From IMG/VR virus record IMGVR_UViG_3300011008_000999: DNA of 64,000 nucleotides; one strand, written 5' to 3'. Numbering within the stretch: position 1 is the first letter of the stretch; each line of letters begins with the position of its first letter. Shown here one piece after another: positions 32,305-63,822 of the stretch. The notes beneath the pieces were generated by a model, which saw only the letters and a list, made by a program, of their open reading frames with translations, did not search any database and was not told the origin of the DNA. Both the position numbers and the translations under genes were made by a program. Source of the stretch: a virus (taxonomy: Duplodnaviria > Caudoviricetes).

Positions 32305-33396
32305 TTAGGCTACTGAAAGCCCTTTGTTTAAGATGTTTAGGCTTGCATTAGTGTCTCTATCGTGCTTTGTATGGCATTTAGGACACTCCCATTCTCTAAC
32401 AGAGAGGTTCTTTACAAGTGGATTTTTATATCCACAACAGCTACATGTTTGACTACTAGGATACATGGTCGGAACTTTAATTATTTCATTTCCATACCAA
32501 GTGGCTTTGTATTCAAGCATTGTAAAGAATTTAGACCATGAGCAGCTTGCTATGTGTTGCGCAAGCTTATGGTTGCGCACCATCCCCTTAATATTTAAGT
32601 CCTCTATACAGATAGTTTGGTTTTCGCTAACAAGTATAGTTGACTGTTTTTGAAGGAAATCGTTGCGCTGATTAGTTATCTTCTCATGGACTTTAGCTAC
32701 TTTAACACGCTGTTTATTGCGATTATTAGAACTTTTCTGCTTACGAGAAAGCCTGCGTTGTTCTCTGATAAGTTTACGCATAGATTTCTCTAAATACTTA
32801 GGGTTGTTGACAATATTGCCGTTGCTGTCGGAGTAAAATTCTTTAATACCGACATCAATGCCAATCACGCCGCCTGCATTTGGTCGATATTCGGGTTCAA
32901 AATCAACATTCAGCACTACAAAGTATTTACCTGTGGGAGTGTGTTCTATCGTAGCATTATTGATACGTCCCACTTTCATAGACTGTTTGACTTTGACATA
33001 TCCAAGCTTCGGGAGCTTAATATAATTCCCGACTATGCGAATGTTATCACCTTGGTTAATGGTCCTGTAGGACTGATGATTATTATGCTTACTCTTGAAC
33101 TGCGGATGTCTTGCACGTTTCTCAAAGAAATTTTTAAATCCACGGTCTAAATCTCTCAAAGATTGTTGAAGTGCAATAGAATCAACAACTTTCAAAAAAG
33201 CAAAATCATCAGACCTTTTTAATTCCGTAAGCATAGCAGATGTTTGATTGTATCCTATTTTTTGACCATTAACGTAGGCATTATTACGCATAGCAAGACC
33301 TTTGTTGTAGATGAGTCTGCAACAACCAAGTGTTTGATTTATTAAGTTTTGCTGCTCTTTATTAGGATATATCCTAAACTTAACACCTTTATTCAT
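32305..33396 (-). CDS. tnpB: RNA-guided endonuclease TnpB
   Basis: RuvC D (GIDVG), E (IEDL), D (DRDTNA); CxxC..CxxC. Confidence 0.95.
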   Translation of the reverse strand: MNKGVKFRIYPNKEQQNLINQTLGCCRLIYNKGLAMRNNAYVNGQKIGYNQTSAMLTELKRSDDFAFLKVVDSIALQQSLRDLDRGFKNFFEKRARHPQFKSKHNNHQSYRTINQGDNIRIVGNYIKLPKLGYVKVKQSMKVGRINNATIEHTPTGKYFVVLNVDFEPEYRPNAGGVIGIDVGIKEFYSDSNGNIVNNPKYLEKSMRKLIREQRRLSRKQKSSNNRNKQRVKVAKVHEKITNQRNDFLQKQSTILVSENQTICIEDLNIKGMVRNHKLAQHIASCSWSKFFTMLEYKATWYGNEIIKVPTMYPSSQTCSCCGYKNPLVKNLSVREWECPKCHTKHDRDTNASLNILNKGLSVA

Positions 33397-35830: not shown

Positions 35831-35946
35831 TAGAGCGAGTTGGATTCGAACCAACGATTGGCTGTTTCCCTTGAATTAGGTAGCGGTTAAAATCACAAAA
35901 ATGATTCATTTTTATGACAGCTGCCTTCCCACTTGGCTATCGCTCT
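35831..35946 (-). ncRNA. tRNA scaffold with handle insert replacing anticodon loop
   Basis: AGAGCGA/TCGCTCT acceptor, D and T arms; GCTGT/ACAGC stem encloses AATCAT-TTTT-GTGATT-TTAACCGCTA. Confidence 0.75.
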
Positions 35947-35948
35947 AA

Positions 35949-43800: not shown

Positions 43801-44235
43801 TTAAAATCGTTCCATCTCTCTTTTCATATCTTTTTCTTTAATTGATTGACGTTTGTCATAATTATGCTTACCTTTACATATACCGAGAAGAACTTTAACC
43901 TTATCATTCTTCATGTACATCTTTAAAGGAATAAGAGTAATTCCATTGTCAATTAACTTGTTCTTAAGGGACCTAATTTCCTGCTTATGAACAAGTAATC
44001 TTCTATTTCTTCTTTCTGCTACATCATAGTCCATAGCTTTATCATACTTAGCAATATGAGTGCCAATAAGAATAAGTTCATTATTTTCAATAGAAATATA
44101 TGAATCCTTAAGATTACATGAACCTTTCTTTATAGACTTAATTTCATGACCTTTGAGCTCAATACCACATTCAATGGTATCAAGCACAAAATAGTCATAA
44201 TAAGCTTTTCTATTTTCTATGTTAATAGAATTCAT
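43801..44235 (-). CDS. smpB: SsrA-binding protein
   Basis: NRKAYYDY, GIELKGHEIKS, RRLLVHK, GKHNYDKR. Confidence 0.95.
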   Translation of the reverse strand: MNSINIENRKAYYDYFVLDTIECGIELKGHEIKSIKKGSCNLKDSYISIENNELILIGTHIAKYDKAMDYDVAERRNRRLLVHKQEIRSLKNKLIDNGITLIPLKMYMKNDKVKVLLGICKGKHNYDKRQSIKEKDMKREMERF

Positions 44236-44402
44236 AATTGCTCCTTGATAGCGCTAATAGTCTGTTTTAATGGACATTCAAAATTCTCAGCTTCTTCATC
44301 AAATAACCAACATGCTTCGCATCCAGCAGGCTGATCTTCAATACACTCACAAAGTACTTCAGCATGATTGATAAGTTTCTTAATATCTTCAGGATTTACC
44401 AT
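44232..44402 (-). CDS. Small Cys-rich protein (below ORF-track cutoff)
   Basis: MVNPED...CEC...CEAC...CPL with RBS. Confidence 0.5.
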   Translation of the reverse strand: MVNPEDIKKLINHAEVLCECIEDQPAGCEACWLFDEEAENFECPLKQTISAIKEQL

Positions 44403-44468
44403 ATTATACTCCTTATTATTTTTCTTTATTAAGGCAAATAGTAGTTTACATAATTTCCTTTGGATTCA

Positions 44469-44888
44469 TCATCCTTCAATATACTGTCTTACTACTCCCT
44501 GAGCCATCTTACCATCAAGAGCACTACCGAACTGCGCCTTAAGAGTCTTCATACATACACCAATGTTCTTCTCAATATTGTTAGTATTGAGGTACTCAAG
44601 AATCTGTTCTTCAGTAACTGCCTGAGGAAGCAGTCCCTGACAATAACCTACCTTTTCAGCAATCTCAGTTGCTCTTACAGAATCATTCTTTACATACTCG
44701 TATAAATCATTAAGCTGCTTGATCTCATTCTTTGCTGCCTTAATGAAGTCATCATCAGTTACAGCACGATTACCATCATTCTTTGCGATCTTCTGAGCAT
44801 TCTCAAGAATAGATCTATATGTAAGCTTTGCAGCCTCATTCTTGTCTTTCATTGCATCTTTAATTAGCATTCTTACTCTTGCTTCCAT
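44469..44888 (-). CDS. GatB/YqeY-domain protein
   Basis: IKDAMKDK...LLPQ...IG.CMK.LK...DGK. Confidence 0.8.
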   Translation of the reverse strand: MEARVRMLIKDAMKDKNEAAKLTYRSILENAQKIAKNDGNRAVTDDDFIKAAKNEIKQLNDLYEYVKNDSVRATEIAEKVGYCQGLLPQAVTEEQILEYLNTNNIEKNIGVCMKTLKAQFGSALDGKMAQGVVRQYIEG

Positions 44889-44910
44889 TTCTTTTATCTC
44901 CTTTTTATTA

Positions 44911-45468
44911 TTATACTAAGAAGCTTATACACTTCTTAATTTCATTCATAATATCATTATAGATTTCATCCATTGAGACAGGACCATTATTATGAGCATC
45001 TACTGCTACATTATATATATAAGGTCTATCTTCAAGGAACTTCTGCTTGCTATGCGTATGACCAAAAAGATTAAATACACAAGTCTTAGGATTACTGTTC
45101 AAATCTGCGGTAAGTGTAGGATAGTGACTAATATAGAACTTTCGTCCCTTATATTCGATCTGCTTAGCTAAACAAATCTCAATAATCTTATCACATCGCT
45201 TATATACTTCGATCTTAGCAGGAGTATCGTGATTACCAAGAATAAGAATAATCTTACCCTTGAGTATTTTCAATGTATTCTCTACAAACTCAATATCTGA
45301 GCCAAAAAAGAAGTCGCCATCTACAATAACAGTATCTTCATCAGTTACAATATTATTCCAATTTCTGATAAGAGTTTCATTTGATTCCTTACAAGACTTA
45401 AAGCCTCTTGGACCCCAAATAAACTCTCTATCATGATTAAAATGTAAATCAGACGTTAAATAAAGCAT
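44911..45468 (-). CDS. Calcineurin-like metallophosphoesterase
   Basis: SDLHFNH, GD, GNHD, SHYP, GHTH. Confidence 0.9.
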   Translation of the reverse strand: MLYLTSDLHFNHDREFIWGPRGFKSCKESNETLIRNWNNIVTDEDTVIVDGDFFFGSDIEFVENTLKILKGKIILILGNHDTPAKIEVYKRCDKIIEICLAKQIEYKGRKFYISHYPTLTADLNSNPKTCVFNLFGHTHSKQKFLEDRPYIYNVAVDAHNNGPVSMDEIYNDIMNEIKKCISFLV

Positions 45469-45469
45469 T

Positions 45470-45940
45470 TTATTTATTCTCCATTATAAAATCAAATATC
45501 TCTTTAGGTACATATTTAGATATGTCTTTCTTGTGTTTAAGAAGTTCTCTTACCATACTAGAACTTACATGACCAAGCTGTCCAGCTCTAATATAAATTG
45601 TGTCAACTCCTGTAACTTCTTCATTAACTGATGCAAGGTTTTCTTCATATTCATAATCCATACCATTACGAATACCACGAACTAATACATCACAGTTATA
45701 CTCAATAGCTGCATCTACACCTAAACCTGTAAATACAACTACTTTTGTATTTGTTATACCTTCTCTTTCAAGAACGTCTTTAATTAAAAGTGCCATTGTA
45801 CTTTGATTATATTTTCTTGTTTTAGCTGGATTAACTCCAACACCAATTACAAGACGATCAAATAGCTTAGATGCTCTTTTAATTACATGTAAATGTCCAT
45901 TTGTAAATGGATCAAAACTACCAGCATAAAAACCGTTCAT
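45470..45940 (-). CDS. coaD: Phosphopantetheine adenylyltransferase
   Basis: GSFDPFTNGHL, RGIR, YE, VSSSMVREL. Confidence 0.9.
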   Translation of the reverse strand: MNGFYAGSFDPFTNGHLHVIKRASKLFDRLVIGVGVNPAKTRKYNQSTMALLIKDVLEREGITNTKVVVFTGLGVDAAIEYNCDVLVRGIRNGMDYEYEENLASVNEEVTGVDTIYIRAGQLGHVSSSMVRELLKHKKDISKYVPKEIFDFIMENK

Positions 45941-45949
45941 ATATTCTCC

Positions 45950-46354
45950 TTAACAATATTTTTCTTTATATTCGTTATACAGTTTTTTAATTTGATCTCT
46001 AGCATCATCTTCATTATCTGCCTTAATATTGAGCACTCTATATCTAATGCTAGTAAAAGCTGCCGCAGTACTTAATTCAGTATGACCTTCAACACCAATG
46101 TGTTTATCAAGATGTACAGCGTTAAATGCACCTTTCTTAAGATCAGCCATATCGTAGTATGCCTTATAATAAGTAAATAACTTATACTCATTAGGATCAT
46201 ACATACCATCTGCAGTTTCCTGTTCATCTATAGTACAAGAATGTAACTCAGCATAAATCTGAGCTTGAACTTTATCAGTAAAAACTTTTTCTATTCCAGA
46301 TTCATCAAAGTCATGCCATACACACACATAAATTTTCATATTATATGCCTCCAA
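45950..46354 (-). CDS. Hypothetical protein
   Basis: ORF in operon. Confidence 0.6.
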   Translation of the reverse strand: MEAYNMKIYVCVWHDFDESGIEKVFTDKVQAQIYAELHSCTIDEQETADGMYDPNEYKLFTYYKAYYDMADLKKGAFNAVHLDKHIGVEGHTELSTAAAFTSIRYRVLNIKADNEDDARDQIKKLYNEYKEKYC

Positions 46355-46807
46355 TTAAGTTAAAGTAGTTGTACATGTACCTTTATGATCAGGACCAGTA
46401 AGTGCATCCAAAATATCGGCAAAGATCTTTTCTTTATCAGTATTAACGAATGTATTGCATGTGCAATATGTCATAAGACTTGTAGGTTCTTCTGTAAACT
46501 GTACTACAATTATACGTTTATGATTAGCAAACGCATAACCTTGTTCCCAGTTAGTTCCGGCAGAACCAATTCTACCAGGTGTAATCATAAGGAATATATC
46601 TGCTTTATCAATGGCTTTTTTATCAGCTTCAAATACTAGCTGTGCCCAATCTTCTTGAGAATAATCCCAAGCATTTTCGATTTTAAGTTCAAATGGACAA
46701 TATATTTCATATCCATTCTTTCTTAAATGTTTTGCTATATTTACCATTAAAGTTCTCTGTTCAGATGAACAACTACCTGCTAAATAAATCATATACATAC
46801 CTCTCAT
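46355..46807 (-). CDS. Nucleoside 2-deoxyribosyltransferase-like protein
   Basis: IYLAG...D..AIDKAD...GTNWEQGYA. Confidence 0.8.
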   Translation of the reverse strand: MRGMYMIYLAGSCSSEQRTLMVNIAKHLRKNGYEIYCPFELKIENAWDYSQEDWAQLVFEADKKAIDKADIFLMITPGRIGSAGTNWEQGYAFANHKRIIVVQFTEEPTSLMTYCTCNTFVNTDKEKIFADILDALTGPDHKGTCTTTLT

Positions 46808-46904
46808 ATATTTATTATGAGTCTATTATAACATGAATTTTTAGTAACGTAAATAGTTTTGATAAAAGAAAAATGGACATGAGATTTTTCTCACATCCAT
46901 TTGA

Positions 46905-47405
46905 TGGGGATATTGAGGATTCGAACACTCGAAGCCGCATTACTCCACGTTCGTCATTGATGTTGCGCATCCATCAATCTAGAATCATATTACACTCGAG
47001 TTTATATGATTCACGTTTTGTCTTTTTTGGCACGTACTCTCCGCACGCCACTTTGTCCACTTGTATATCACCCCATGATAAGCAGTCTCCCCAGGAGTCG
47101 AACCTAGGACCTTTGTAGCGTCGTACCCCATCCGGTAACCTTTCTTGCGGAAAGATCTGCATGCATTTACTTTAGGGTACCGGGCCCGCATTACTCTACT
47201 TGTAGTGTCAGTTAGCTAGACTGTCTTTCAAATATTTCACTGCCCTTCATCAAGACCATATTAATTAGTATAGGCTGTTCGTCAAACTCCAGTTAGCAAT
47301 TCAAACCCAACTTAGACTTACCGGCTAAGAGCGCTTCTAGCTTGCACAGGGCAATTTACACGCCGCGTCTTAACTCCACTCTGCAGCAGTATCTAAGAAT
47401 TACAG
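46905..47405 (-). ncRNA. Structured RNA region with two oversized tRNA-like units
   Basis: T-loops near 46920 and 47095; three GTRGAGT..A..GCGG repeats. Confidence 0.5.
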
Positions 47406-47417
47406 TTTGCACCTAAA

Positions 47418-47489
47418 AGTCGACGGTGGGAGTCGAACCCACGATACTGGTTTTGCAGACCAAGGCCTTAACCACTTGGCTACGTCGAC
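47418..47489 (-). tRNA. tRNA-Cys(GCA)
   Basis: Cloverleaf. Confidence 0.9.
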
Positions 47490-47638
47490 AAACATAATTT
47501 ATAGAAAGTTTTATTTAGTATACATAGCTCGACAATACATTTTTCTTATTGTACTAAATCTAATTACCTGATCTCGCTTACCTTTAGTCATTTCATAATT
47601 CTAAGGCTGCACCTTTTGTTTCATAAATCGTTTTCATT

Positions 47639-48484
47639 TTATTTCTCAGTAATCTTAGATGCAGTTTTCTTAATAGCTGTAGTCTTTTTCTTCTTAAGCT
47701 GTTCTGTCAACCTAGCACACTCAGCTTTAAGTCTTGCATTCTCATCACGTTCTTTCTTTAATTCTTCTTCATATATATTAATCAATGTTTCAGTACATTC
47801 TGTCAAACTAACAATTTTAGCTTTAAGAATAGTAAATCCATCACTAAGTTCAGGATAGTTTGCTTTTCCGTAAGTAGTAAGTGGATAGATCCAAGTTCTA
47901 GTTTCATTTACATATTTATGAAGCTTTTCAGGTTTCATAACATAGAGATCTTCTACATTATGTGATCTATCTGCCAACTTAATAAGAATAGCATACTTAT
48001 TTCTCTTAATCTGGTTGAAATAATCATCAAGTTCTTCTTCTGTTGCACCAGATCTCTTACTTACTAACTTAACTGCTTCCAATACTTTAGGTGAAAAATG
48101 ATATTCATTAACTAGTTCATTTCCACCCTTAGGAAAGTATTCTGAACAATCTTCTAAACTATCATGTAATAAAGCTGCTGCAAGAAGATTATCAAGTTCA
48201 TCAACTTTTAAAGGAAGTCTTAATGAAATAAGTGTAGAGCAAACTTTTAATACGTGAAGTACATAAGGTAATCTATAAGATTGACCGTTAACAATTACTT
48301 CGCCTTTTCTATATTGACCATTGTGGAAACGTCTTACTAAAGGTAACGCTCTTAAAGTCTGTGGAAGTCGAAGCGCAGTCGCATAACCTTTGATAAACAA
48401 ATAAGTTTTATCATATAGAAAAGCTTCTTCTACGTTAAATGATTCAACTATTTTCTGTGACATACACTTCACCACCTTTCTCAC
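47639..48484 (-). CDS. RelA/SpoT-type HD hydrolase (small alarmone hydrolase-like)
   Basis: H.GQYRK, PYVLH, AALLHDSLED, IKLADRSHN. Confidence 0.8.
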   Translation of the reverse strand: MRKVVKCMSQKIVESFNVEEAFLYDKTYLFIKGYATALRLPQTLRALPLVRRFHNGQYRKGEVIVNGQSYRLPYVLHVLKVCSTLISLRLPLKVDELDNLLAAALLHDSLEDCSEYFPKGGNELVNEYHFSPKVLEAVKLVSKRSGATEEELDDYFNQIKRNKYAILIKLADRSHNVEDLYVMKPEKLHKYVNETRTWIYPLTTYGKANYPELSDGFTILKAKIVSLTECTETLINIYEEELKKERDENARLKAECARLTEQLKKKKTTAIKKTASKITEK

Positions 48485-48826
48485 TCTTTGGACTGAAGTT
48501 CCATTACTCTCTGGTAAGCTTCTTCTCCAATAACATCCATTACGGCATTACCATGTTCTGGTGACTTTTTACAAATTTCCCAAATATCTTTAGCTACTTC
48601 AATTTCGATCTTTTCCATAATAGCATCCTTTCTTTTTATTAAGGAACCATCGCTGCTATCTTTCACTCCTACGATAGTGCACCTAACAGAAGATGTAGCA
48701 TTTACCGGCGCTCAACCTTTACTGTGCTATGAACGACTTTGCTCCAAGTTGAGCCGAGGCGGCTGGAACCATGAAACAAAACTTGTAGAATCCAAAATGA
48801 ATAAAATGACAAATCACTTTGGAAAG

Positions 48827-49185
48827 TGGAGATGAGGGGAATCGAACCCCTGTCCGAAATACTTACTCAGAGCTTTCTACACGTTTATCTTGCTTTTAAT
48901 AAGTTATCTAACCATCTAAACAGGCGAACTGATTAGCAACTAACTATTGTGGTCTTATGTATGAATACTTTTGTCATCCTCTTCATACAGCAGCGATCAT
49001 CTTTGGCCATAAGAGATACGACCGCAATACTCTTATGACTTAACTCTCCGAAGAGAGGTTGCTGCGATTAGGCAGCTGCGTAACCGTAGTTAGCGTTTAT
49101 TGTTTGGTGTCGGATTCAAGAGGTGTCCACCATCCTCTACGTGCTTTTCTCGTTGCTTGTACCCCGTCGAAACCTTTACATCCCC
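48827..49185 (-). ncRNA. ssrA: tmRNA; tag (A)ANYGYAAA*
   Basis: 5' GGGGATGTAAAGGTTTCGAC, 3' GGTTCGATTCCCCTCATCTCCA; ATAAAC-GCT AAC TAC GGT TAC GCA GCT GCC TAA. Confidence 0.95.
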
Positions 49186-49502: not shown

Positions 49503-49726
49503 ATTACTGCCTCCTTAAGTGTAAATAGTTAGTACGACGACTAACTATTTTAAAACGAACTATGTTAATTGTAAAAGACCACTCCTAAGGTTGCAACTAG
49601 AGGCATCATCACCGCTTATAAAGTGTCTATGAATAAATCTAGAATCATCATAGGCAAGCAATATAAGGAAGGTACTTCTTACAGCCGCTAAACTGTTGTA
49701 ATTCCTCTACTTAAGAGTGGTCAAAT

Positions 49727-49860
49727 AGAGATGGTAGGAATCGAACCTACAATTCTACACTATATACACATACATTCGACTTACTAGTATATCAAATATA
49801 TGTTTTTGATGTATATAGAACGAGATCACATCCGGCGTCTTCCTATTCCGCCACATCTCT
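49727..49860 (-). ncRNA. Non-canonical tRNA-like RNA (Leu-type D arm, long hairpin)
   Basis: AGAGATG/CATCTCT, GGCGGAATAGGAAGACGC, T-arm. Confidence 0.65.
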
Positions 49861-49864
49861 AAAC

Positions 49865-49956
49865 TAGTCAGATAAGTTTCGAACTTATGTCTCCCTACGT
49901 CTAGGTTGTTTTGACCAAGGATTTACTTTTTGGCACCTTATCTAAACTACTGACTA
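49865..49956 (-). ncRNA. tRNA-like RNA with D-loop insert and 4-nt anticodon loop
   Basis: TAGTCAG/CTGACTA; CCTA-GACG-TAGG. Confidence 0.6.
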
Positions 49957-50110
49957 ATAATCCGAGGTAGGATTCCATTATGGCCCCTTTGATACGCATG
50001 CTTTTATCATACTCACCATAACCGCCACCTACATGTTCTGCAGGTTCGTCTGCTACGTCTTTCGTCCTTATTCGAATTCGGACTTGTTAGTGATTAAACG
50101 ACTCGGACAA

Positions 50111-50890: not shown

Positions 50891-51065
50891 ATATAAGAGA
50901 GTGTACTAATCCTCAGCTTCGAGTATGGCTAACCCTTAGGGAGTCGAACCCACCGATAAGATACAGAATAGTAATCAGCACATCTGTTTTAACTAGGTGA
51001 TTAAGCTAGCGACTTATCTGGACTTTAGATCATCTTGCAAAACAATCTGTCGTCTACACTCTAAA

Positions 51066-51189
51066 GAAGGATGGTAGGACTCGAACCTACAGTGTACCGG
51101 CTCCCTAAGCATTAGAATTTTGGTTGCTGTCTTTATCACGAAAATGATAGTGTCAAAACGGCGCGTCTGCCAATTCCGCCACATCCTTC
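51066..51189 (-). ncRNA. Leu-type tRNA scaffold with handle insert in anticodon arm
   Basis: TATCAT-TTTC-GTGATA-AAGACAGCAA inside the arm. Confidence 0.75.
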
Positions 51190-51191
51190 AA

Positions 51192-51315
51192 CGACTGAGG
51201 AAGGAATCGAACCTTCACCTTTTCCGTGACAGGGAAATTTATTTAAGTTTGTTTGCTGTCTAAATCACGGTGATGATTCTGAAATATAAATATGCTTCCA
51301 TTACACCACTCGGCC
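51192..51315 (-). ncRNA. tRNA-Asp(GTC) with about 50-nt handle insert between D arm and anticodon stem
   Basis: AATCAT-CACC-GTGATT-TAGACAGCAA, then intact TTTCC-CTGTCAC-GGAAA. Confidence 0.75.
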
Positions 51316-51360
51316 AAATTTTATTTAATTGTCAAGTTGCTGCTGAATAATTCAGCGAAT

Positions 51361-51472
51361 TGCAGGAAATGGAATCGAACCATTGTCTCGTCCTATATGT
51401 GTGGAATATAAGATAGCTGTTAAAATCACGAAAATGATTCATTTTACGCGCTCTACCACTAAGCTATCCTGC
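51361..51472 (-). ncRNA. tRNA scaffold with handle insert replacing anticodon loop
   Basis: AATCAT-TTTC-GTGATT-TTAACAGCTA. Confidence 0.75.
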
Positions 51473-51473
51473 G

Positions 51474-52234: not shown

Positions 52235-52309
52235 AACCAGTATAAGGAATCGAACCTTTAATTTCTAGGCCTATCGCCCAGCACACTTACCAAAGTACTT
52301 TTACTGGTT
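52235..52309 (-). ncRNA. tRNA-like RNA with atypical anticodon loop (CGATAGG)
   Basis: AACCAGT/ACTGGTT, T-arm; no U33. Confidence 0.5.
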
Positions 52310-54699: not shown

Positions 54700-55194
54700 T
54701 TACTTACTGATTCTATCAGCAATACTACTTGATGTATAAGACTCAGGCTTTACCTTACAGTCATATCCGCAGGCTTTGATCCAACCAACGAGCATTGGAA
54801 TAAGTTCCTTTGTCTTACCCTTATCGCTCCAACCTGCGTCTACATGAATAGCCAAACTTGAGTTTTCTCTAAGTTCGCCGTACTCAGACTTTTCCAAAAT
54901 TTCTACAAGTTCAGTCATTGTGTTTAGACTTCTTGTAGTCTCTTCAGTAAGCTTCATACGAACATCAGAGATCTTTTTGATGTTTGAAACTTCATAGAAG
55001 AAGATTCCACCATGTCCTTCACAGGTTACCGCGATAACAGTTACGATCTTAGTAGTTGAGAAATTATTCTGTGAATCAGTACCTACAGTGATTAGTAATG
55101 GAACATCATAATGCTTCATTTTCTCAAAGTAGTCTAGAATCTTACTTGGAATTTCTTGCAACTCTAGTTTTCCGTACGTGTTACTCTTGTACAT
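54700..55194 (-). CDS. RNase H-like YkuK/DUF458 protein
   Basis: VGTDSQ, HGGIFFY, ET..S, IHVDAG, KPES. Confidence 0.85.
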   Translation of the reverse strand: MYKSNTYGKLELQEIPSKILDYFEKMKHYDVPLLITVGTDSQNNFSTTKIVTVIAVTCEGHGGIFFYEVSNIKKISDVRMKLTEETTRSLNTMTELVEILEKSEYGELRENSSLAIHVDAGWSDKGKTKELIPMLVGWIKACGYDCKVKPESYTSSSIADRISK

Positions 55195-56330: not shown

Positions 56331-56410
56331 ATAATTCTCTAATCAGTGATATACGATGTTTGTATCTCGCTTACGCTCACATTAGTCCATATATGTAATT
56401 AGAGTTAAAA

Positions 56411-56481
56411 TATGTTGGAAGGACTCGAACCTTCAACCTCCGGCTCCGACGCCGGTACTCTGCCAACTGAGCTACAACACC
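56411..56481 (-). ncRNA. tRNA-like RNA with 6-nt anticodon loop (GTCGGA)
   Basis: Otherwise canonical arms. Confidence 0.65.
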
Positions 56482-56582
56482 TTCTACCTACTTATTCAAT
56501 TTTTAGATTGTACTTCTCTACATATCCTGTTCGGTAGGACGCTCAATTAAGAATTGTACTTTTTCTCATTGAAACGAATTAA

Positions 56583-56670
56583 CGACCTAAAGAGGAATCG
56601 AACCTCTACCAGCTTTAAGACTTAATGCCGTTCTACGCGCTTAAAATATCTTCCATTAAACTATTAGGCC
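56583..56670 (-). ncRNA. tRNA-like RNA with 20-nt anticodon loop
   Basis: GGCCTAA/TTAGGTC; TTTAAG[20 nt]CTTAAA. Confidence 0.65.
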
Positions 56671-56672
56671 AG

Positions 56673-57266: not shown

Positions 57267-57350
57267 AGGACGCATTGTTTACGGATTTGAACCGTGTGAT
57301 TTGAGTTGCAGTCAAATATTTTACCAAAATTAGTTTGCTGTGAACGTCCC
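57267..57350 (-). ncRNA. D/anticodon(GCA)/T arms mounted on an ACAGCAA handle instead of an acceptor stem
   Basis: GGGACGT-TCACAGCAA...TTTGA-CTGCAAC-TCAAA...ACGG-TTCAAAT-CCGT...GCGTCCT. Confidence 0.7.
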
Positions 57351-58728: not shown

Positions 58729-59420
58729 CTTACCACTATAACTTTCATTACCGTCTCAAACAAAACGTTTGTGGTCTGGACTAGTTCTTCACCATATCAT
58801 TTCTGACTTAGGTGCGACGTGTATAGTCTCTACACATTTAGGTTACTAAACCATTTAGCTCGCCATTCCCATACAGCTTTAACTATCTGTAAGGCTTTGT
58901 GATTTAGCGCCGTTCTCATCTAGGAGTTTCCTACCTAGTGACTCATTTGTCTTTCCTCTTCTAAAACGATAAGTTTTAGTTAAAGCATGGCAATTTGGAC
59001 AAATTAACCTTAGATTTTCTAATCTATGATCAGTTGGATTGCCATTTATGTGATCTAATTCACAAGGTGTATATGTTGCACCTTCTGGTTTTTTATTCCA
59101 ACCACATAATTGACATTTGTCCTCAAAATATCCTTCATTTATAAGTCTAATTTTTAACTTATATGTTTGATAATGAGGATATTTACCAGCTAGTATATCA
59201 GAGGTTTCAATGTGTCTAGAAGATAACTTTTTAGTACCTTTTCCACCTTGATTTTTAATTTTGTGGAATATACCTAACGCCTTTGCTTTCGCAATATACG
59301 TTCGATATGACATACCGCATAATTTACTAGCTTGAGCCACGGTTTGACAGTTTTCAGTGATTTTTATGAACTCTTCATCAGTAATACCAGATTTGTTCAT
59401 ATTATCACCTACTTTCTTTT
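58729..59420 (-). ncRNA. Group I intron in anticodon (U^AA)
   Basis: Splice after U, terminal G; P1 GACUU|A...UGAGUC with U-G pair; P7 elements GTAGAGACTA and GAAGAACTAGTCC. Confidence 0.9.
58879..59400 (-). CDS. Intron-encoded HNH homing endonuclease
   Basis: CQLC...ELDHING..DHRLENLRLICPNCHA. Confidence 0.9.
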   Translation of the reverse strand: MNKSGITDEEFIKITENCQTVAQASKLCGMSYRTYIAKAKALGIFHKIKNQGGKGTKKLSSRHIETSDILAGKYPHYQTYKLKIRLINEGYFEDKCQLCGWNKKPEGATYTPCELDHINGNPTDHRLENLRLICPNCHALTKTYRFRRGKTNESLGRKLLDENGAKSQSLTDS

Positions 59421-59492
59421 AAGTCCCTTGTGTCTGCCAATTCCACCATATCCGCATTTGTATGGGCTAGGGTTACTAACCCATACTTATGT

Positions 59493-59586
59493 TTAAGCAG
59501 CTACAGTAACTGCTGCATAACGATCACTACAGATCACATCAAGCATTGCTTCGAGAGGTGTCTTATTCATTCCCTGAACTAAGTTC
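59493..59586 (-). pseudogene. C-terminal remnant of a DUF2828/vWA (Ro60/TROVE-like) gene
   Basis: NLVQGMNKTPLEAMLDVICSDRYAAVTVAA* followed by hairpin; family recognised from memory of the TP..ML....S.RY ending. Confidence 0.55.
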
Positions 59587-59733
59587 GTGAACTACTCGGC
59601 AACAAGTTACCGAGCTTCTTGCTTCAACCACTACTGCTAGGCTACACGTAACCGTGTTGGCTAGTCTTACACAGTGTCCACAAGCGTATAAGTTCGGGCA
59701 GTTCCTGCCCTACTATAAGAATAAGAGATGGAT

Positions 59734-60858
59734 TTAGGCTACTTGTAGTAATCTGAGTCCTTCATTTTTTATGTTGATAGCTGCATTGTAGTCTCTATCT
59801 ATAGTTAGACCACAATCACATTTATATATTCTATCAGCAAGGGTAAGCTTTCTTTGGCTTCCGCAACAGCTACATAGCTGTGAGGAAGGATACCATTTAT
59901 CTACTTTGATAAAGTATTTTCCTCTATCAAAAAGCTTGTACTCTAGCATATTTAGAAATAATCCATAGTCGTTATCTAAAGTAGCCTTTCCATTTCCAAA
60001 GCCCTTATTAGACATAGCTCTCATATCAAGGCTTTCTACACATACAACGTCATACTGATTGGCTATCTCAGTAGAGAGTTTATGTAAATTATCTAGTCTT
60101 TGGTTAGTGATGTGTCTATGGATTTTATTTACTTTCTTTAATTGTTTTAGATAGTTATTGGATTTCTTTTCATTCTTTTTAGAACCTATTTTACGAGAAA
60201 GTTTACGTTGTTCTTTAGCGAGCTTTTTATGACTTTCTCGATAGTATTTATGATTGGAACCTATATTTCCATTACTATCCATATACAAACCATCAGATTT
60301 ATAATCTAAGCCGATTGCATTATCTGATTTAGTAACTTTAGTAATAACTCTGTCAAATTCAAAGAGAATAGAAATATAAAAACTACCATCACTTTCTTGA
60401 GATACAGTAGCAGACTTGATTATCCAGTCAGCCTCTGGCTGTCTATGGATAACTGCCTTCACCTTACCTATCTTAGGTAACTTGATGTACTTATCATCTA
60501 TGATTGCCACCGTACCTTTTTGATTATTAGTAGTATAGGACTTTCTAGTATGCTTTCTTGACTTGAATTTAGGAAAGCCATTACGTTTTTTACGTTTCTT
60601 GTCAAAGAAAGCCTTATAGGAAGACTGTAAGTTGATTTGTACATTGGCGAGAGCCAAAGAATCAACTTCCTTCAAGAATGTATAGTCTTTCTTGTACTGT
60701 GCAGGCGTAGTCTGAAAACTCTCGCCTGTAGCTTTGTAATAAGCAATCTTATCTACGAGCATAAGATTCCACACCTTACGGCAACAGCCGAAGGTCTGTG
60801 CAAACTTATCAGCTTGTTCAGTTGTAGGATATACTCGATACTTGATTGCTTTATTCAT
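59734..60858 (-). CDS. tnpB: RNA-guided endonuclease TnpB
   Basis: GLDY, VESL, DRDYNAA; Zn finger. Confidence 0.95.
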   Translation of the reverse strand: MNKAIKYRVYPTTEQADKFAQTFGCCRKVWNLMLVDKIAYYKATGESFQTTPAQYKKDYTFLKEVDSLALANVQINLQSSYKAFFDKKRKKRNGFPKFKSRKHTRKSYTTNNQKGTVAIIDDKYIKLPKIGKVKAVIHRQPEADWIIKSATVSQESDGSFYISILFEFDRVITKVTKSDNAIGLDYKSDGLYMDSNGNIGSNHKYYRESHKKLAKEQRKLSRKIGSKKNEKKSNNYLKQLKKVNKIHRHITNQRLDNLHKLSTEIANQYDVVCVESLDMRAMSNKGFGNGKATLDNDYGLFLNMLEYKLFDRGKYFIKVDKWYPSSQLCSCCGSQRKLTLADRIYKCDCGLTIDRDYNAAINIKNEGLRLLQVA

Positions 60859-61268
60859 AGCTGTACATTCTTTTGCCTTTCTATATATTTTAGGATGTTT
60901 TCCTCAGAGGTGGAGCCTATGGTTTCACAGAAGTAAGAGCCATTCCAAAGTTGACCTTTCCAAAGCATAGTTCTAATCTCAGGAAACTCTTTGAGTAATG
61001 TATTCCCACTAATGCCTTTGAGATACTTTACTATTTGAGTAACTGAAATCTTTGGTGGAGCAGATACAAAACAATGAACGTGGTCGCTTTCACCAACTTT
61101 GCAATCTACCACAGTAAAGCCTTTCTCAATACCTATCTCTTTTACTAACTCATAGAGTCTTTCAGCTATCTCAGGTTTGAGAACTTTCCTTCTGTATTTG
61201 ACACACCATACGATGTGATAATTGATATTGTAGACGCAGGTGCGTCCGTGAGTGTACTTGTTATTCAT
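60855..61268 (-). CDS. tnpA: Y1 HUH transposase
   Basis: YHIVWCVKYRR, DHVH, LKG.S, YIERQ. Confidence 0.95.
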   Translation of the reverse strand: MNNKYTHGRTCVYNINYHIVWCVKYRRKVLKPEIAERLYELVKEIGIEKGFTVVDCKVGESDHVHCFVSAPPKISVTQIVKYLKGISGNTLLKEFPEIRTMLWKGQLWNGSYFCETIGSTSEENILKYIERQKNVQL

Positions 61269-61416
61269 ACATATAGTATATATCTAATGTGTATCAATGT
61301 TAATATTTATGCTATTAGCTAATCATACATATAGTATAATAATTTAGGTTGAGAAAAACGGGCTTTCATCTCGGATACAAGTAACCGAGAATTCCCGCCC
61401 GAATTCTTAAAGGTGT

Positions 61417-62136
61417 TTGCTGTTTGAGTCACATGTATTTTGAGTCGTCCACTAAAGTAGGACCTCTCTAATTAAATGATTGACAAGATCTGTTAATAGG
61501 ATTTTTCGACGATCTTTATACTCGATTTCCTCGTACGTTGTGGACGTACAAACCAGACTTTACAGTCATCATCGTTAACATTTGATAATGTTTGCTGTAG
61601 TCAATCACAAAATGCAATTGTAAAGGTACGATACCTAAATGACGAGTTTAACAAGATAATTTTTTCGCATAAATTTTCTGTTGTTAATGTTTTGCAGTAA
61701 TCGTCACAAATAGGTGAGTTACTAAATGACTGACAAGGAACGTTTAATGGGATTTTTTGGTCGTTACCTATGCTACACCGTTTCCCGACATGTTAGGTAC
61801 ATGCCAACCTAATTTTTATTTACCTAAAATAAAATTAAGAAGATTTGCAATTGTATTGCTGTTAAGTCAGTCACGACTTGTAAAAAATATGATTGTCACG
61901 GACTCTTTCTCGGATTTTCTGGTGGCATACCGCTCTTTACCGTTTCCGGATAGATCATTTGAATCGGATCTTTTGGCTGATACTATCATGTTCCATTTCC
62001 GGATAGGTCGTTAGTCAGATTTTTAGTGACCTATCAGTATACATTTTCTGGATTGTTAAACAATCAGCTTTGGCACCTTTATCGTGCACATACTGTTATC
62101 ATCTTTAATAGAATGATTTGCTGTTAAGACAATCAC
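61417..62136 (-). repeat. Array of five handle-RNA units (one truncated)
   Basis: 61889..62136, 61726..61874, 61639..61707, 61476..61608, 61417..61432; covarying terminal helices plus AC(A/T)GCAA. Confidence 0.8.
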
Positions 62137-62843: not shown

Positions 62844-63727
62844 ACGCTGAGATAATTGGCGTTTGTACATAGCATCTATAGTCGTTGGAGACTATTTATC
62901 ACACAGTCGATTAGACTGTAGCTATGAATGGCACTAATCTTGAGAAGATTAGCAGACACTTACCAGAAGCTTTATAGATTTCATTTTGTCACATTCTTCC
63001 TTGCGGGATTCACAGCTTGCGGGCTGTTAGAGTTGCAACTACTCTTACTTCTCTCATGTATCACCTTGCGAGTTTTACATGCCACCATATTGCAGATGGA
63101 TAAGCCATTTTTCAGCTTTCTGGTCGGATGCACTTTTGCGATTTTTAATCAAATAATTTGGTTATTATATTAACTGTATAATCCAAATCCTATGAGGATA
63201 ATGTTTTCCATTCCATTGAACTACGAGGCATCCGTTTGGACACCAATACCTTTTGAGTACTGTCCATCCATCGTAATTCTGCTTGTCTTGTGTCGACTTA
63301 CTCGATTATTCTGAACCGCTCTTTCGATTAGAACCATCACATCCAATTCAATCCACCGAAGTGAATATCCTCTTCAGTCTCCGGAACTTCTCTTTCAAGT
63401 TGGATCCATCATAAAAGTAAATTTAGCACTTATTATATCCCTATAACTTGCACCAAAGATCTAACTACTGAGCTCTATTATTTCTAATAAAGAGAACATT
63501 TTCCATTGCTCTGTTTGCTTCGACCTCTCAATCACTTGACCGTTGAGGTTACGTTCAAACTAAGTAGTTTAGGTTTTCCGCTGTACTGTATTACTACAGT
63601 CGAGAAAGGTTTGGCTCCTTACTCTTTATCCCTGTTACCAGGTTTATCTAACGACCCGAAACCGACCGGTTATATTAAACAATCAAATTTTAGGGCCAGA
63701 ACCGAAGTTCTAGTTCAACTTGATTGA
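62844..63727 (-). ncRNA. GOLLD-like giant structured RNA
   Basis: About 880 nt without a credible ORF; many GCAA/GAAA/TTCG hairpins, CTCAAAAGG, 3' ACGCC..ATCTCAGCGT; beside tRNA genes. Confidence 0.7.
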
Positions 63728-63763: not shown

Positions 63764-63822
63764 ATGACTCGTTATATTTTTCACCCAATTGAAAATTTTT
63801 TAGTATTTGCTGACTAAGTCAC
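63764..63822 (-). ncRNA. Stand-alone handle RNA unit
   Basis: GTGACTT-AGTCAGCAA...TTTTCA-ATTGGG-TGAAAA...GAGTCAT. Confidence 0.7.

What the first reader, a model, noticed from the sequence alone, without database searches (positions are those of the whole stretch)
51066..51472. The same handle, circularly permuted, grafted into tRNA scaffolds
Seen: four tRNA-like genes (35831..35946, 51066..51189, 51192..51315, 51361..51472) carry a 50-60 nt insert WATCAT-[4-nt loop]-GTGATW-N-AC(A/C)GC(A/T)A. This is the helix of the 61.4-62.1 kb units with strand order swapped and the G-U end closed by a tetraloop. In three it replaces the anticodon loop; in tRNA-Asp it sits between D arm and an intact GTC anticodon arm. 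The scaffolds differ from each other, so the module was reused independently. Inference: protein-tethered tRNA mimics (decoys or substrates for anticodon nucleases, ligase or RNase), or a new type of removable tRNA insert.
Basis: partly seen in the sequence, partly recalled or inferred. Interest (0 to 1): 0.88.

Follow-up and report, generated by a model that had tools for sequence, protein, structure and literature searches.

The report
Ro60-like protein handle grafted into tRNAs
Four tRNA-shaped genes in this 332-kb phage carry a short conserved RNA "handle" that, in dozens of the phage and gut-bacterial loci fetched here, sits next to a Ro60-like ring protein; so they are probably Y-RNA-like partner RNAs, not tRNAs with introns, and in this phage the protein gene has been destroyed by a transposon.

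Summary
Four tRNA-like genes on the minus strand (35831-35947, 51066-51189, 51192-51315, 51360-51473) each contain a 7-bp hairpin (AUCAU-N4-GUGAU core), 2 nt, then (R)AC(A/C)GC(A/U)A. A covariance model finds exactly these four in the 332-kb genome. The same GUGA...ACAGCAA...UCAU helix, with open ends, closes four stand-alone RNAs at 61476-62136.

The module recurs in at least 10 different tRNA scaffolds in other phages and in gut Firmicutes and Prevotella contigs. About 50 of roughly 57 such loci also encode a DUF2828+vWA protein within the fetched flank. The AlphaFold model of that protein matches Ro60/TROVE structures best.

The handle is therefore most likely the docking site of a Ro60 paralogue, and the genes are Y-RNA-like tRNA mimics with a topology permuted relative to YrlA.

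The intron reading is not supported. There is no BHB motif, splicing endonuclease, RtcB or Rnl2-type RNA ligase, and excision mostly fails to restore a canonical anticodon loop.

New for this window: a syntenic 394-kb relative keeps all four genes and an intact DUF2828 gene. Here an IS200/IS605 element replaces that gene, leaving about 32 C-terminal codons (59499-59600), so the handles are orphaned.

Earlier notes of this scan describe the DUF2828-handle system in many other genomes. I found no paper or Rfam family for the RNA.

The parts
35831..35947 (-). Gene A. A tRNA-like scaffold with acceptor AGAGCGA/UCGCUCU, a 3-bp D stem, anticodon stem GCUGU/ACAGC and a T arm. A 51-nt interior stands in place of the 7-nt loop. 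The handle hairpin is at 35880-35908, with ACCGC in place of ACAGC.
   Evidence: Rfam tRNA 50.1 bits; R1 34.8 bits; sequence; ortholog in G001 (L165).
51360..51473 (-). Gene B. A tRNA-like scaffold with a C1.A72 mismatch at the end of the acceptor stem. The handle (51413-51441) branches off after the first 2 bp of the anticodon stem and is followed by a 7-bp hairpin with loop UCCACAC.
   Evidence: Rfam tRNA 44.5 bits; R1 40 bits; 98% identical ortholog in G001; metagenomic variants have an 8-nt loop.
51192..51315 (-). Gene C. An Asp-like scaffold. The handle (51252-51280) lies in a ~49-nt insert between the D arm and an intact anticodon arm UUUCC-CUGUCAC-GGAAA.
   Evidence: The G001 ortholog has compensatory acceptor-stem changes.
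51066..51189 (-). Gene D. A Leu-like scaffold with a class II-type D arm and no long variable arm. The handle (51123-51151) lies inside the anticodon stem CCG/CGG. The 3' linker ends in UAGGGAG, as in related scaffolds.
   Evidence: Rfam tRNA 33.9 bits; R1 36 bits; homologous scaffold L152; G001 ortholog.
61476..62136 (-). Four stand-alone Y-like RNAs, each closed by the same helix with open ends: 61889-62136, 61726-61874, 61639-61707 (ACUGC variant) and 61476-61608.
   Evidence: Terminal helices and coordinates; motif scan; all conserved in G001.
61417..61432 (-). Truncated fifth unit. Only the 5' strand and ACAGCAA remain. Its body and 3' strand are lost at the IS junction.
   Evidence: Synteny with G001 ends at 61415.
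59612..61415 (-). IS200/IS605 element (tnpA 60855-61268, tnpB 59734-60858). It replaces the rest of unit 5, a tRNA-Asp and about 448 codons of the DUF2828 gene that are present in G001.
   Evidence: Pfam Y1_Tnp 2.6e-40 and OrfB_IS605/TNB; synteny break; right end shared with another tnpB copy.
59499..59600 (-). Remnant of the Ro60-like DUF2828 gene. The last ~32 codons align to profile positions 459-490 of 491. One in-frame TAG lies inside, and the natural stop follows.
   Evidence: domain E 2.9e-5 over the six frames of window 59300-61500; E 0.0015 over the whole genome. Window 59591-58040 aligns at 80% identity to a stretch of G001 that begins in the last ~90 nt of its DUF2828 gene.

Best explanation
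The four genes are tRNA-shaped members of an apparently undescribed family of Y-RNA-like partner RNAs.

The family is defined by a portable handle: a clamp helix whose outer end is always U.G / A-U / C-G (UCAU paired with GUGA), about 2 unpaired nucleotides, then single-stranded (R)ACAGCAA.

I infer that this handle is the docking site for a Ro60 paralogue, the DUF2828+vWA protein family. The inference rests on constant gene linkage and on analogy with Ro60-Y RNA.

In stand-alone RNAs the helix joins the 5' and 3' ends, as in YrlA. In these four genes the helix is capped by a variable loop and inserted in the anticodon-arm region. The RNA therefore keeps a tRNA's own acceptor end, D arm and T arm. 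The tRNA body would act as the second module, which a protein-bound RNA presents to tRNA-recognising enzymes or nucleases. This last step is inferred.

In this phage the protein gene has been replaced by an IS200/IS605 element. The nine or more handles are now orphans. They either work with a protein supplied in trans, from the host or a prophage, or they are relics that have not yet decayed.
For: 1. The handle is real, strand-specific and structured. There are four R1 hits and no others in 332 kb. Covariation includes invariant U.G and frequent U.G pairs that exist only on the tRNA-sense strand.

2. The same module occurs in at least 10 different tRNA scaffolds, at positions 26/27, 28/29, 29/30 or in the loop, in other viral contigs and in gut or rumen MAGs.

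3. Linkage to the protein is strong. 50 of the loci with a tRNA-borne handle encode a DUF2828+DUF7788/vWA protein in the fetched flank. None of 91 chance-match loci does. Most exceptions end at a contig edge. Three of three complete phage genomes tested have both the handle and the protein.

4. The AF2 model of the protein (pLDDT 80.5) matches Ro60/TROVE structures as its top nine PDB hits over the full length (TM-score 0.31-0.58).

5. Loci often hold arrays of 2-4 handle-bearing tRNA-like RNAs. Some (L135, L140, L138) also have a terminal-helix RNA with or without a T arm, directly upstream of the protein gene. This is the Rsr-YrlA layout (PMC4201824).

6. The syntenic relative G001 has orthologs of A-D, the five units and an intact DUF2828 gene exactly where this genome has the IS and a C-terminal remnant.
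Against: - No binding has been shown. The link between handle and protein is genomic association plus fold analogy.
- The Pfam TROVE model and the Rfam Y_RNA/YrlA models do not match. The only YrlA hit is 24.7 bits against a cut-off of 69, in L121. The handle differs from the Ro60-binding motif of YrlA.
- This genome has no partner protein, so a function here is uncertain. Two of its nine handles carry a substitution in the otherwise near-invariant ACAGC, against 0 of 10 in G001. That hints at decay but is not significant.
- Some scaffolds (gene C here, L080, L048, L146) keep perfectly canonical anticodon arms, which the mimic model does not require.
- Helix length between GUGA and ACAGCAA varies from 6 to 9 bp in stand-alone units, so one fixed protein-RNA geometry is not obvious.
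- Expression is not shown.
Confidence: 0.7

Rival explanations
1. The inserts are a new kind of short, protein-dependent tRNA intron. The conserved hairpin plus ACAGCAA is the recognition element for a splicing endonuclease. After excision and ligation the genes give working tRNAs.
For: Gene C keeps a canonical Asp anticodon arm. In other loci, removing the insert restores clean arms: L080 gives ACGGG-CUUGUAA-CCCGU, and L048 and L146 have intact Thr and Ile arms. ARAGORN in intron mode returns a tRNA for each gene. 'Enigmatic' tRNA introns have been reported in Lak megaphages (PMC6784885).
Against: - For A, B and D and for most scaffold classes, excision gives A33, loops of 8-10 nt, or no anticodon arm. 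ARAGORN's four splice positions are mutually inconsistent.
- BHB-like motifs are no more frequent than in shuffles.
- The phage has no EndA, RtcB or Rnl2-type ligase.
- 41-49 nt is far too short for group I, and no intron family hits.
- The same handle closes RNAs with no tRNA body and tracks a Ro60-like gene.
- The part of the Lak intron table (S6) that is held as text contains no ACAGCA.
Confidence: 0.08
2. The handle is a functional RNA element that does not act through DUF2828. It could be a processing or stability signal for an RNase in polycistronic tRNA-array transcripts, or a cis-regulatory element of the DUF2828 operon. On this view the link to the protein gene is only co-transcription.
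For: In stand-alone units the invariant GUGA and UCAU lie exactly at the predicted RNA termini, which would suit an end-defining processing signal. Handles lie in tRNA arrays that need extensive processing. They persist in this genome without the protein.
Against: The hairpin-capped copies have no ends to define, yet they keep the same invariant pairs. Linkage to DUF2828 holds across very different phages and tRNA contexts, including small 40-78 kb phages with few tRNAs. The design of a helix plus an adjacent single-stranded motif parallels known Ro60-Y RNA recognition (PMC4201824).
Confidence: 0.12
3. The motif acts at the DNA level, as an inverted-repeat operator, a recombination or homing site, or a hairpin promoter. 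Its presence in tRNA genes would then be incidental.
For: ATCAT-N4-GTGAT is nearly palindromic. The phage carries mobile elements (IS200/IS605, HNH) nearby.
Against: - The invariant U.G closing pair and frequent U.G pairs are mismatches on the opposite strand.
- All copies are on the tRNA-sense strand.
- The outer pairs covary while the loop sequence is free.
- In stand-alone units the two helix strands lie 60-240 nt apart, which does not suit a DNA-binding site.
Confidence: 0.03

Closest known systems
Bacterial and phage Ro60 (Rsr)-Y RNA particles, especially YrlA (Chen et al. 2014, PMC4201824; Rfam RF02553)
   Same: Both are modular small RNAs with one protein-docking helix and one tRNA-like domain. 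Both are encoded on the same strand within a few kb of a ring-shaped TROVE+vWA-fold protein. Both often have several RNAs per locus and occur in phages as well as bacteria.
   Different: The protein belongs to a different sequence family (DUF2828/DUF7788; the Pfam TROVE model does not hit). The handle is different: UCAU/GUGA helix plus ACAGCAA, instead of the Ro60-binding helix and GNCGAAN0-1G motif. In the four genes here the topology is permuted: the RNA ends lie at a true acceptor stem and the handle is capped, whereas YrlA has its ends in the Ro60-binding stem and a closed 'acceptor'. The Rfam YrlA and Y_RNA models do not match.
Class I RNAs of dictyostelid social amoebae (Aspegren 2004; search pattern GTTGRCCTTACAGCAA ... 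GTCAACTG in PMC5054030; PMC7919456)
   Same: Both have a short covarying stem joining the 5' and 3' ends, a conserved 5' G, and an adjacent single-stranded motif ending in ACAGCAA, followed by a variable body. This is the design of the stand-alone units at 61476-62136.
   Different: Class I RNAs are eukaryotic, 42-65 nt, and reported as unique to Dictyostelia. They have their own DUSE promoter and a known RRM-protein binder. No tRNA-embedded or capped version is described. Homology is not tested here, and the resemblance rests on a 7-nt motif plus architecture.
tRNA introns (archaeal and eukaryal BHB introns; group I introns in bacterial tRNAs; 'enigmatic' introns of Lak megaphages, PMC6784885)
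   Same: Extra sequence interrupts the anticodon-arm region of a tRNA gene, sometimes at non-canonical positions (26/27, 28/29, 29/30).
   Different: There is no BHB motif, no ribozyme-sized core, no splicing enzymes in the phage, and no consistent restoration of a decoding anticodon loop. The insert carries a motif that also closes non-tRNA RNAs.

Membership tests
Ro60-Y RNA (YrlA-type) ribonucleoprotein | The RNA gene lies next to, and on the same strand as, a Ro60/TROVE-family protein gene. | tested here: inconclusive
   Met in relatives: about 50 of 57 handle loci, and G001-G003. Not met in this window, where only a 32-codon remnant of the gene survives beside an IS.
Ro60-Y RNA (YrlA-type) ribonucleoprotein | The partner protein is a TROVE (HEAT-repeat ring) plus vWA protein. 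| tested here: inconclusive
   Fold level: the top nine Foldseek PDB hits of the DUF2828 model are Ro60/TROVE structures over the full length. Sequence level: Pfam TROVE does not match; Pfam assigns DUF2828, DUF7788 and a weak VWA_2.
Ro60-Y RNA (YrlA-type) ribonucleoprotein | The RNA matches the Y_RNA or YrlA covariance models, or carries the Ro60-binding helix and GNCGAAN0-1G motif. | tested here: not met
   No Y_RNA or YrlA hit in the window at E<=1. The only hit elsewhere is 24.7 bits against a cut-off of 69. The handle sequence is different.
Ro60-Y RNA (YrlA-type) ribonucleoprotein | The RNA is bound by the protein in vivo or in vitro. | not testable with these tools
   No protein-RNA complex predictor or experimental data were available.
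Decoding tRNA | Cloverleaf with acceptor stem, D arm and T arm. | tested here: met
   Rfam tRNA hits of 29-50 bits across the inserts. Compensatory changes in the acceptor and T stems against G001.
Decoding tRNA | A contiguous 5-bp anticodon stem with a 7-nt loop (U33, purine 37), stacked directly on the D stem. | tested here: not met
   A and D have a 48-51-nt interior instead of a loop. B has a branched stem. C has a canonical arm, but it is separated from the D arm by ~49 nt.
BHB-type (archaeal/eukaryal) tRNA intron | A bulge-helix-bulge motif at the exon-intron junctions, and a splicing endonuclease plus ligase. | tested here: not met
   0-4 BHB-like motifs per gene against 1.1-2.7 in shuffles, none at a consistent boundary. 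No tRNA_int_endo, RtcB or RNA_ligase family in the genome, while the control genomes were positive.
Group I intron in tRNA | A ribozyme core of roughly 200 nt or more (P3-P9) that matches Intron_gpI. | tested here: not met
   The inserts are 41-49 nt, and no intron family hits at these sites.
Dictyostelid Class I RNA | A 6-bp terminal stem with a conserved 5' G, plus an adjacent 11-nt motif (..UUACAGCAA). | tested here: inconclusive
   The stand-alone units have a G-initiated terminal stem followed by UUAACAGCAA or ACAGCAA, compared with the published pattern. The four tRNA-borne copies are topologically permuted. Common descent and a shared protein partner were not tested.

The most novel reading that the evidence does not exclude
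The orphan handles are not relics but weapons. A phage that has lost its own Ro60-like protein still floods the cell with nine or more handle RNAs, several of them shaped like tRNAs with real anticodon arms. These would capture or misdirect a DUF2828+vWA ring encoded by the host or a resident prophage. In a Diplocloster hominis contig that gene sits beside a PP2C phosphatase and a kinase with a conflict-system domain. The RNAs would then be RNA-based anti-defence decoys. More broadly, the capped handle would be a natural, portable 'tag' that lets any tRNA body be loaded onto a Ro60-like surveillance ring.
Probability: 0.12. Interest if true: 0.85.

Novelty: new variant of a known kind. Interest (0 to 1): 0.6.

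Why it matters
Ro60-Y RNA particles are a classic but narrowly sampled RNA-surveillance system. Bacterial Y RNAs (YrlA) are known only for TROVE-family Ro60.

The evidence here points to a second Ro60-like family (DUF2828+vWA), found across many gut and rumen phage and Firmicutes/Prevotella loci, with its own RNA partners that I could not find described anywhere. Their docking module is portable enough to be grafted, in circularly permuted form, into many different tRNA bodies.

This gives a defined 29-nt element and a defined protein for binding and structural tests. It explains a class of 'tRNAs with odd inserts' that annotation pipelines miss or call pseudo-tRNAs. Through the shared stem-plus-ACAGCAA design it also offers a testable lead on the unexplained Class I RNAs of Dictyostelium.

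This particular phage is a natural knock-out: the RNAs are present and the protein gene is destroyed by an IS. That makes it useful for asking whether the RNAs act alone or in trans.

Tried and rejected
1. Intron hypotheses:
- ARAGORN in intron mode gave four mutually inconsistent splice positions and non-canonical loops.
- A BHB scan was at chance level.
- No EndA, RtcB or Rnl2-type ligase is present in the genome.
- The Lak-phage 'enigmatic intron' table contains no ACAGCA in the text that is held.

2. Known small ribozymes or Rfam families: no hit at the inserts or at the units at E<=1.

3. TROVE, DUF2828 or the L135 protein in the phage's own genome: nothing was found with Pfam models, phmmer or a custom HMM. 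Only the alignment-profile search found the C-terminal remnant.

4. Single-sequence MFE folds of the four genes were uninformative. Two have z-scores near zero, and the cloverleaf is not recovered.

5. Close parental tRNAs within the array: none of the four scaffolds is a near-copy of a canonical tRNA here. Only gene D shares its D arm with tRNA-Leu(CAA).

6. Dating the IS insertion: there is no identical second copy. The related tnpB is 72% identical and the right-end segment 85%.

7. The first genome-wide pattern scan of bacterial genomes returned many chance matches inside coding regions of unrelated phyla. Only the hits in a tRNA context were kept.

8. Literature searches for DUF2828, for phage tRNA introns and for Ro60/vWA/tRNA-like found no description of this RNA.

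Full report
**What is there.** The window is the minus-strand view of G000:C1:143027-207026. G000 is a complete 331,944-bp virus record with direct terminal repeats and 32.7% G+C. ARAGORN and Rfam find about 40 tRNAs and a tmRNA, all on the minus strand. A GOLLD-like RNA heads the array.

Rfam's tRNA model also matches four over-long genes across internal insertions: 35831-35946, 51066-51188, 51192-51315 (matched in part) and 51360-51473.

A loose pattern for GTGA...ACAGCWA occurs 8 times in the window against 0.8 expected. Seven of these lie on the minus strand in the tRNA region. In the whole genome the convincing copies are these four plus five at 61417-62136.

**Is the hairpin a real RNA structure?** I aligned 26 distinct copies from this window and from other sequences. 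The five inner pairs are invariant, partly because the search pattern fixed them. The two pairs outside them covary freely. The first is AU 10, GC 7, UA 6, CG 2, GU 1, with none unpaired.

A covariance model (R1) scored the four window copies at 34.6-40 bits. Nothing else in the window or the genome exceeded 15 bits.

Searching 30 other loci with R1 recovered further copies that the pattern had not forced. These include UUCAU/GUGGA and GUCAU/GUGAC variants. In 40 distinct sequences 97% of cells pair, four of seven pairs show double changes, and no shuffle reaches these values.

The core left invariant is a helix end of U.G, A-U, C-G, followed after seven pairs and two free nucleotides by (R)ACAGCAA. 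The U.G pairs exist only on the tRNA-sense strand. That argues for RNA rather than DNA function.

**The stand-alone units and the permutation.** At 61476-62136 four RNAs of 69-248 nt begin with GUGA(N5), are followed by ACAGCAA (ACUGCAA in one), and end with (N5')UCAU. The two ends form a 7-9-bp helix with a terminal G.U. A fifth unit is truncated at 61417-61432. Further variants sit at 63764-63822 and 57267-57350.

**Where the module sits in the four genes.**
- Gene A keeps a 5-bp anticodon stem (GCUGU/ACAGC) around a 51-nt interior.
- Gene D keeps a 3-bp stem (CCG/CGG).
- Gene B has the module branching off after 2 bp of the stem, followed by a 7-bp hairpin with a 7-nt loop.
- Gene C has the module between the D arm and a canonical CUGUCAC arm.

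The inserts are 41-49 nt. None of the scaffolds is a near-copy of a regular tRNA in the array.

**Relatives.** An exact-pattern scan of IMG/VR returned 116 loci. About half are chance matches in coding DNA. The rest are tRNA-like genes with the module.

A stricter pattern over 185,579 prokaryotic genomes returned 39 loci. The genuine ones are all in gut or rumen Lachnospiraceae, other Clostridia and Prevotella assemblies. One is an isolate, Diplocloster hominis CSJ-3, whose tRNA-like gene (the 120 nt compared) is identical to viral contigs.

At least ten scaffold classes carry the module, at positions 26/27, 28/29, 29/30 or within the loop. Some keep textbook anticodon arms: CUUGUAA in L080, CUGGUAA in L048, CUGAUAA in L146. 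Many do not: they have loops of 8-10 nt, A33, or no arm at all. Metagenomic relatives of gene B have an 8-nt loop where this phage has 7.

**The partner protein.** Reading downstream of these genes, I found a conserved ORF beginning MSFA(D/E)...TRTENGA. Pfam assigns it DUF2828 + DUF7788 with a weak vWA match.

Of the loci with a tRNA-borne handle, 50 encode this protein within the fetched flank. Most of the rest end at a contig edge. None of 91 chance-match loci has it. Three complete phage genomes with handles (394, 157 and 130 kb) all encode it.

An AlphaFold2 model built on a 12-sequence alignment (pLDDT 80.5, pTM 0.75) finds Ro60/TROVE structures as its nine best PDB matches over the full length. 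These include a TROVE-domain crystal structure, Thermus phage phiLo Ro60, Deinococcus Rsr, Xenopus Ro and human Ro60.

Loci typically hold 2-4 handle-bearing tRNA-like genes, and some also have a terminal-helix RNA with a T arm, directly upstream of the protein gene. This is the layout of Rsr with YrlA. In YrlA a protein-binding stem is combined with a tRNA-like domain (PMC4201824). The handle sequence is different, and the Rfam YrlA and Y_RNA models do not match.

**What happened in this genome.** No TROVE or DUF2828 homologue was found by Pfam models, phmmer or a custom HMM. A profile search allowing stops found one 32-residue match to the extreme C-terminus at window 59499-59600. It lies immediately after the tnpB gene of an IS200/IS605 element.

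The 394-kb relative G001 is syntenic. It has tRNA-Pro, tRNA-Asn, the same five units, a tRNA-Asp, an intact 487-aa DUF2828 gene and an HNH ORF, followed by tRNA-Thr and the rest of the array.

The alignment between the two genomes breaks at window 61415 and resumes at 59591. In between, 1.8 kb of IS replaces 1.6 kb that in G001 holds the rest of unit 5, the tRNA-Asp and about 448 codons of the gene.

G001 also has orthologs of genes A-D. B is 98% identical. C has compensatory acceptor-stem changes, and A has compensatory acceptor- and T-stem changes.

Two of nine handles here deviate in ACAGC (gene A and unit 3), against none of ten in G001. This is a hint of relaxed constraint, not a significant one.

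**Why not introns.**
- The inserts are far too short for group I, and no intron family hits them.
- BHB-like motifs are at chance frequency.
- The phage lacks a splicing endonuclease, RtcB and Rnl2-type ligase, while control genomes were positive.
- ARAGORN's intron calls are inconsistent from gene to gene.
- The same handle closes RNAs that have no tRNA to restore.
- The Lak-megaphage intron table, as far as it is held, has no ACAGCA.

The canonical anticodon arms in a minority of scaffolds keep this rival alive at a low level.

**Mechanism.**
- Shown: a conserved, covarying, strand-specific RNA module. It is portable between topologies and scaffolds. It is tightly linked to a Ro60-fold protein. 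That protein's gene has been lost here.
- Inferred: the protein binds the helix plus ACAGCAA as Ro60 binds the Y RNA stem. The tRNA body is the second module, presented to tRNA-recognising factors.
- Unknown: the biological role, whether the RNAs are expressed, and whether they act here with a protein supplied in trans.

**Comparison and novelty.** The closest known system is Ro60/Rsr with YrlA. The protein family, the handle and the tRNA-end topology all differ from it.

The stand-alone units also share their design, a G-initiated terminal stem followed by ..ACAGCAA, with dictyostelid Class I RNAs. The published search pattern for those is GTTGRCCTTACAGCAA ... GTCAACTG (PMC5054030; PMC7919456). 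That lead came from earlier scan notes. I checked only the published motif.

A jumbo-phage review mentions TROVE proteins with a 'tRNA-like partner' in a few phages but does not describe these RNAs (PMC7824862). I found no paper or Rfam family for the handle.

Earlier notes of this scan report the DUF2828-handle pairing in many other genomes. The system is therefore not new to the scan. The specific points added here are the four-gene anatomy, the ortholog comparison and the tool-based confirmation that an IS destroyed the partner gene.

Noticed in passing
window 62844-63279 (-): Full-length match to the GOLLD RNA model (93.1 bits, E 1.5e-23, below the gathering score of 150). It sits at the head of the tRNA and handle-RNA array.
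   Followed up: no
window 57267-57350 (-): An 84-nt RNA closed by GGGACG/GCGUCCU and followed by UUCACAGCAAA. Inside are a Cys-like anticodon arm (CUGCAAC) and a T arm. The ACAGCAA is kept, but the helix lacks GUGA/UCAU.
   Followed up: partly
window 63764-63822 (-): A 59-nt unit closed by GUGACU(U)/GAGUCAU with GUCAGCAA in place of ACAGCAA. It is another handle variant, upstream of the GOLLD-like RNA.
   Followed up: partly
window 32305-33396 (-) and genome 11433-12681: Further TnpB (IS605 OrfB) genes. The 32.3-kb copy shares an 85% identical right-end segment with the IS that destroyed the DUF2828 gene. The phage therefore carries several IS200/IS605-family elements.
   Followed up: partly
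window 49726-49860 (-): A 135-nt tRNA-like gene (Rfam 34 bits) with an AT-rich ~60-nt insert that lacks the handle. Earlier notes list more such mimics at 49726-50108 and 50898-51062.
   Followed up: no
window 43801-49185 (-): The phage encodes its own tmRNA (139.5 bits, tag ANYGYAAA) and SmpB. Nearby are YqeY-like, metallophosphoesterase, cytidylyltransferase, nucleoside deoxyribosyltransferase/TIR-like and HD-domain proteins.
   Followed up: partly
window 54700-55194 (-): An RNaseH_like (PF04308) ORF embedded in the tRNA array.
   Followed up: no
window 58879-59400 (-): An HNH endonuclease ORF directly after the DUF2828 remnant, also present in G001. My Rfam scan at E<=1 gave no group I hit there.
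   Followed up: no
L148 3838-7893 (Diplocloster hominis CSJ-3) and L135 5180-6127: Downstream neighbours of DUF2828 differ between loci. One locus has a PP2C phosphatase plus a protein kinase with a weak TCAD9 ('ternary conflict system') match, E 2.4e-4 and below the cut-off. Another has a dihydrouridine synthase (Dus).
   Followed up: partly
window 52235-52308, 56409-56482, 56582-56671 (-): ARAGORN calls a tRNA with anticodon AUA (labelled Tyr) and two tRNAs with undetermined 2-nt 'anticodons'. These are odd members of the array.
   Followed up: no
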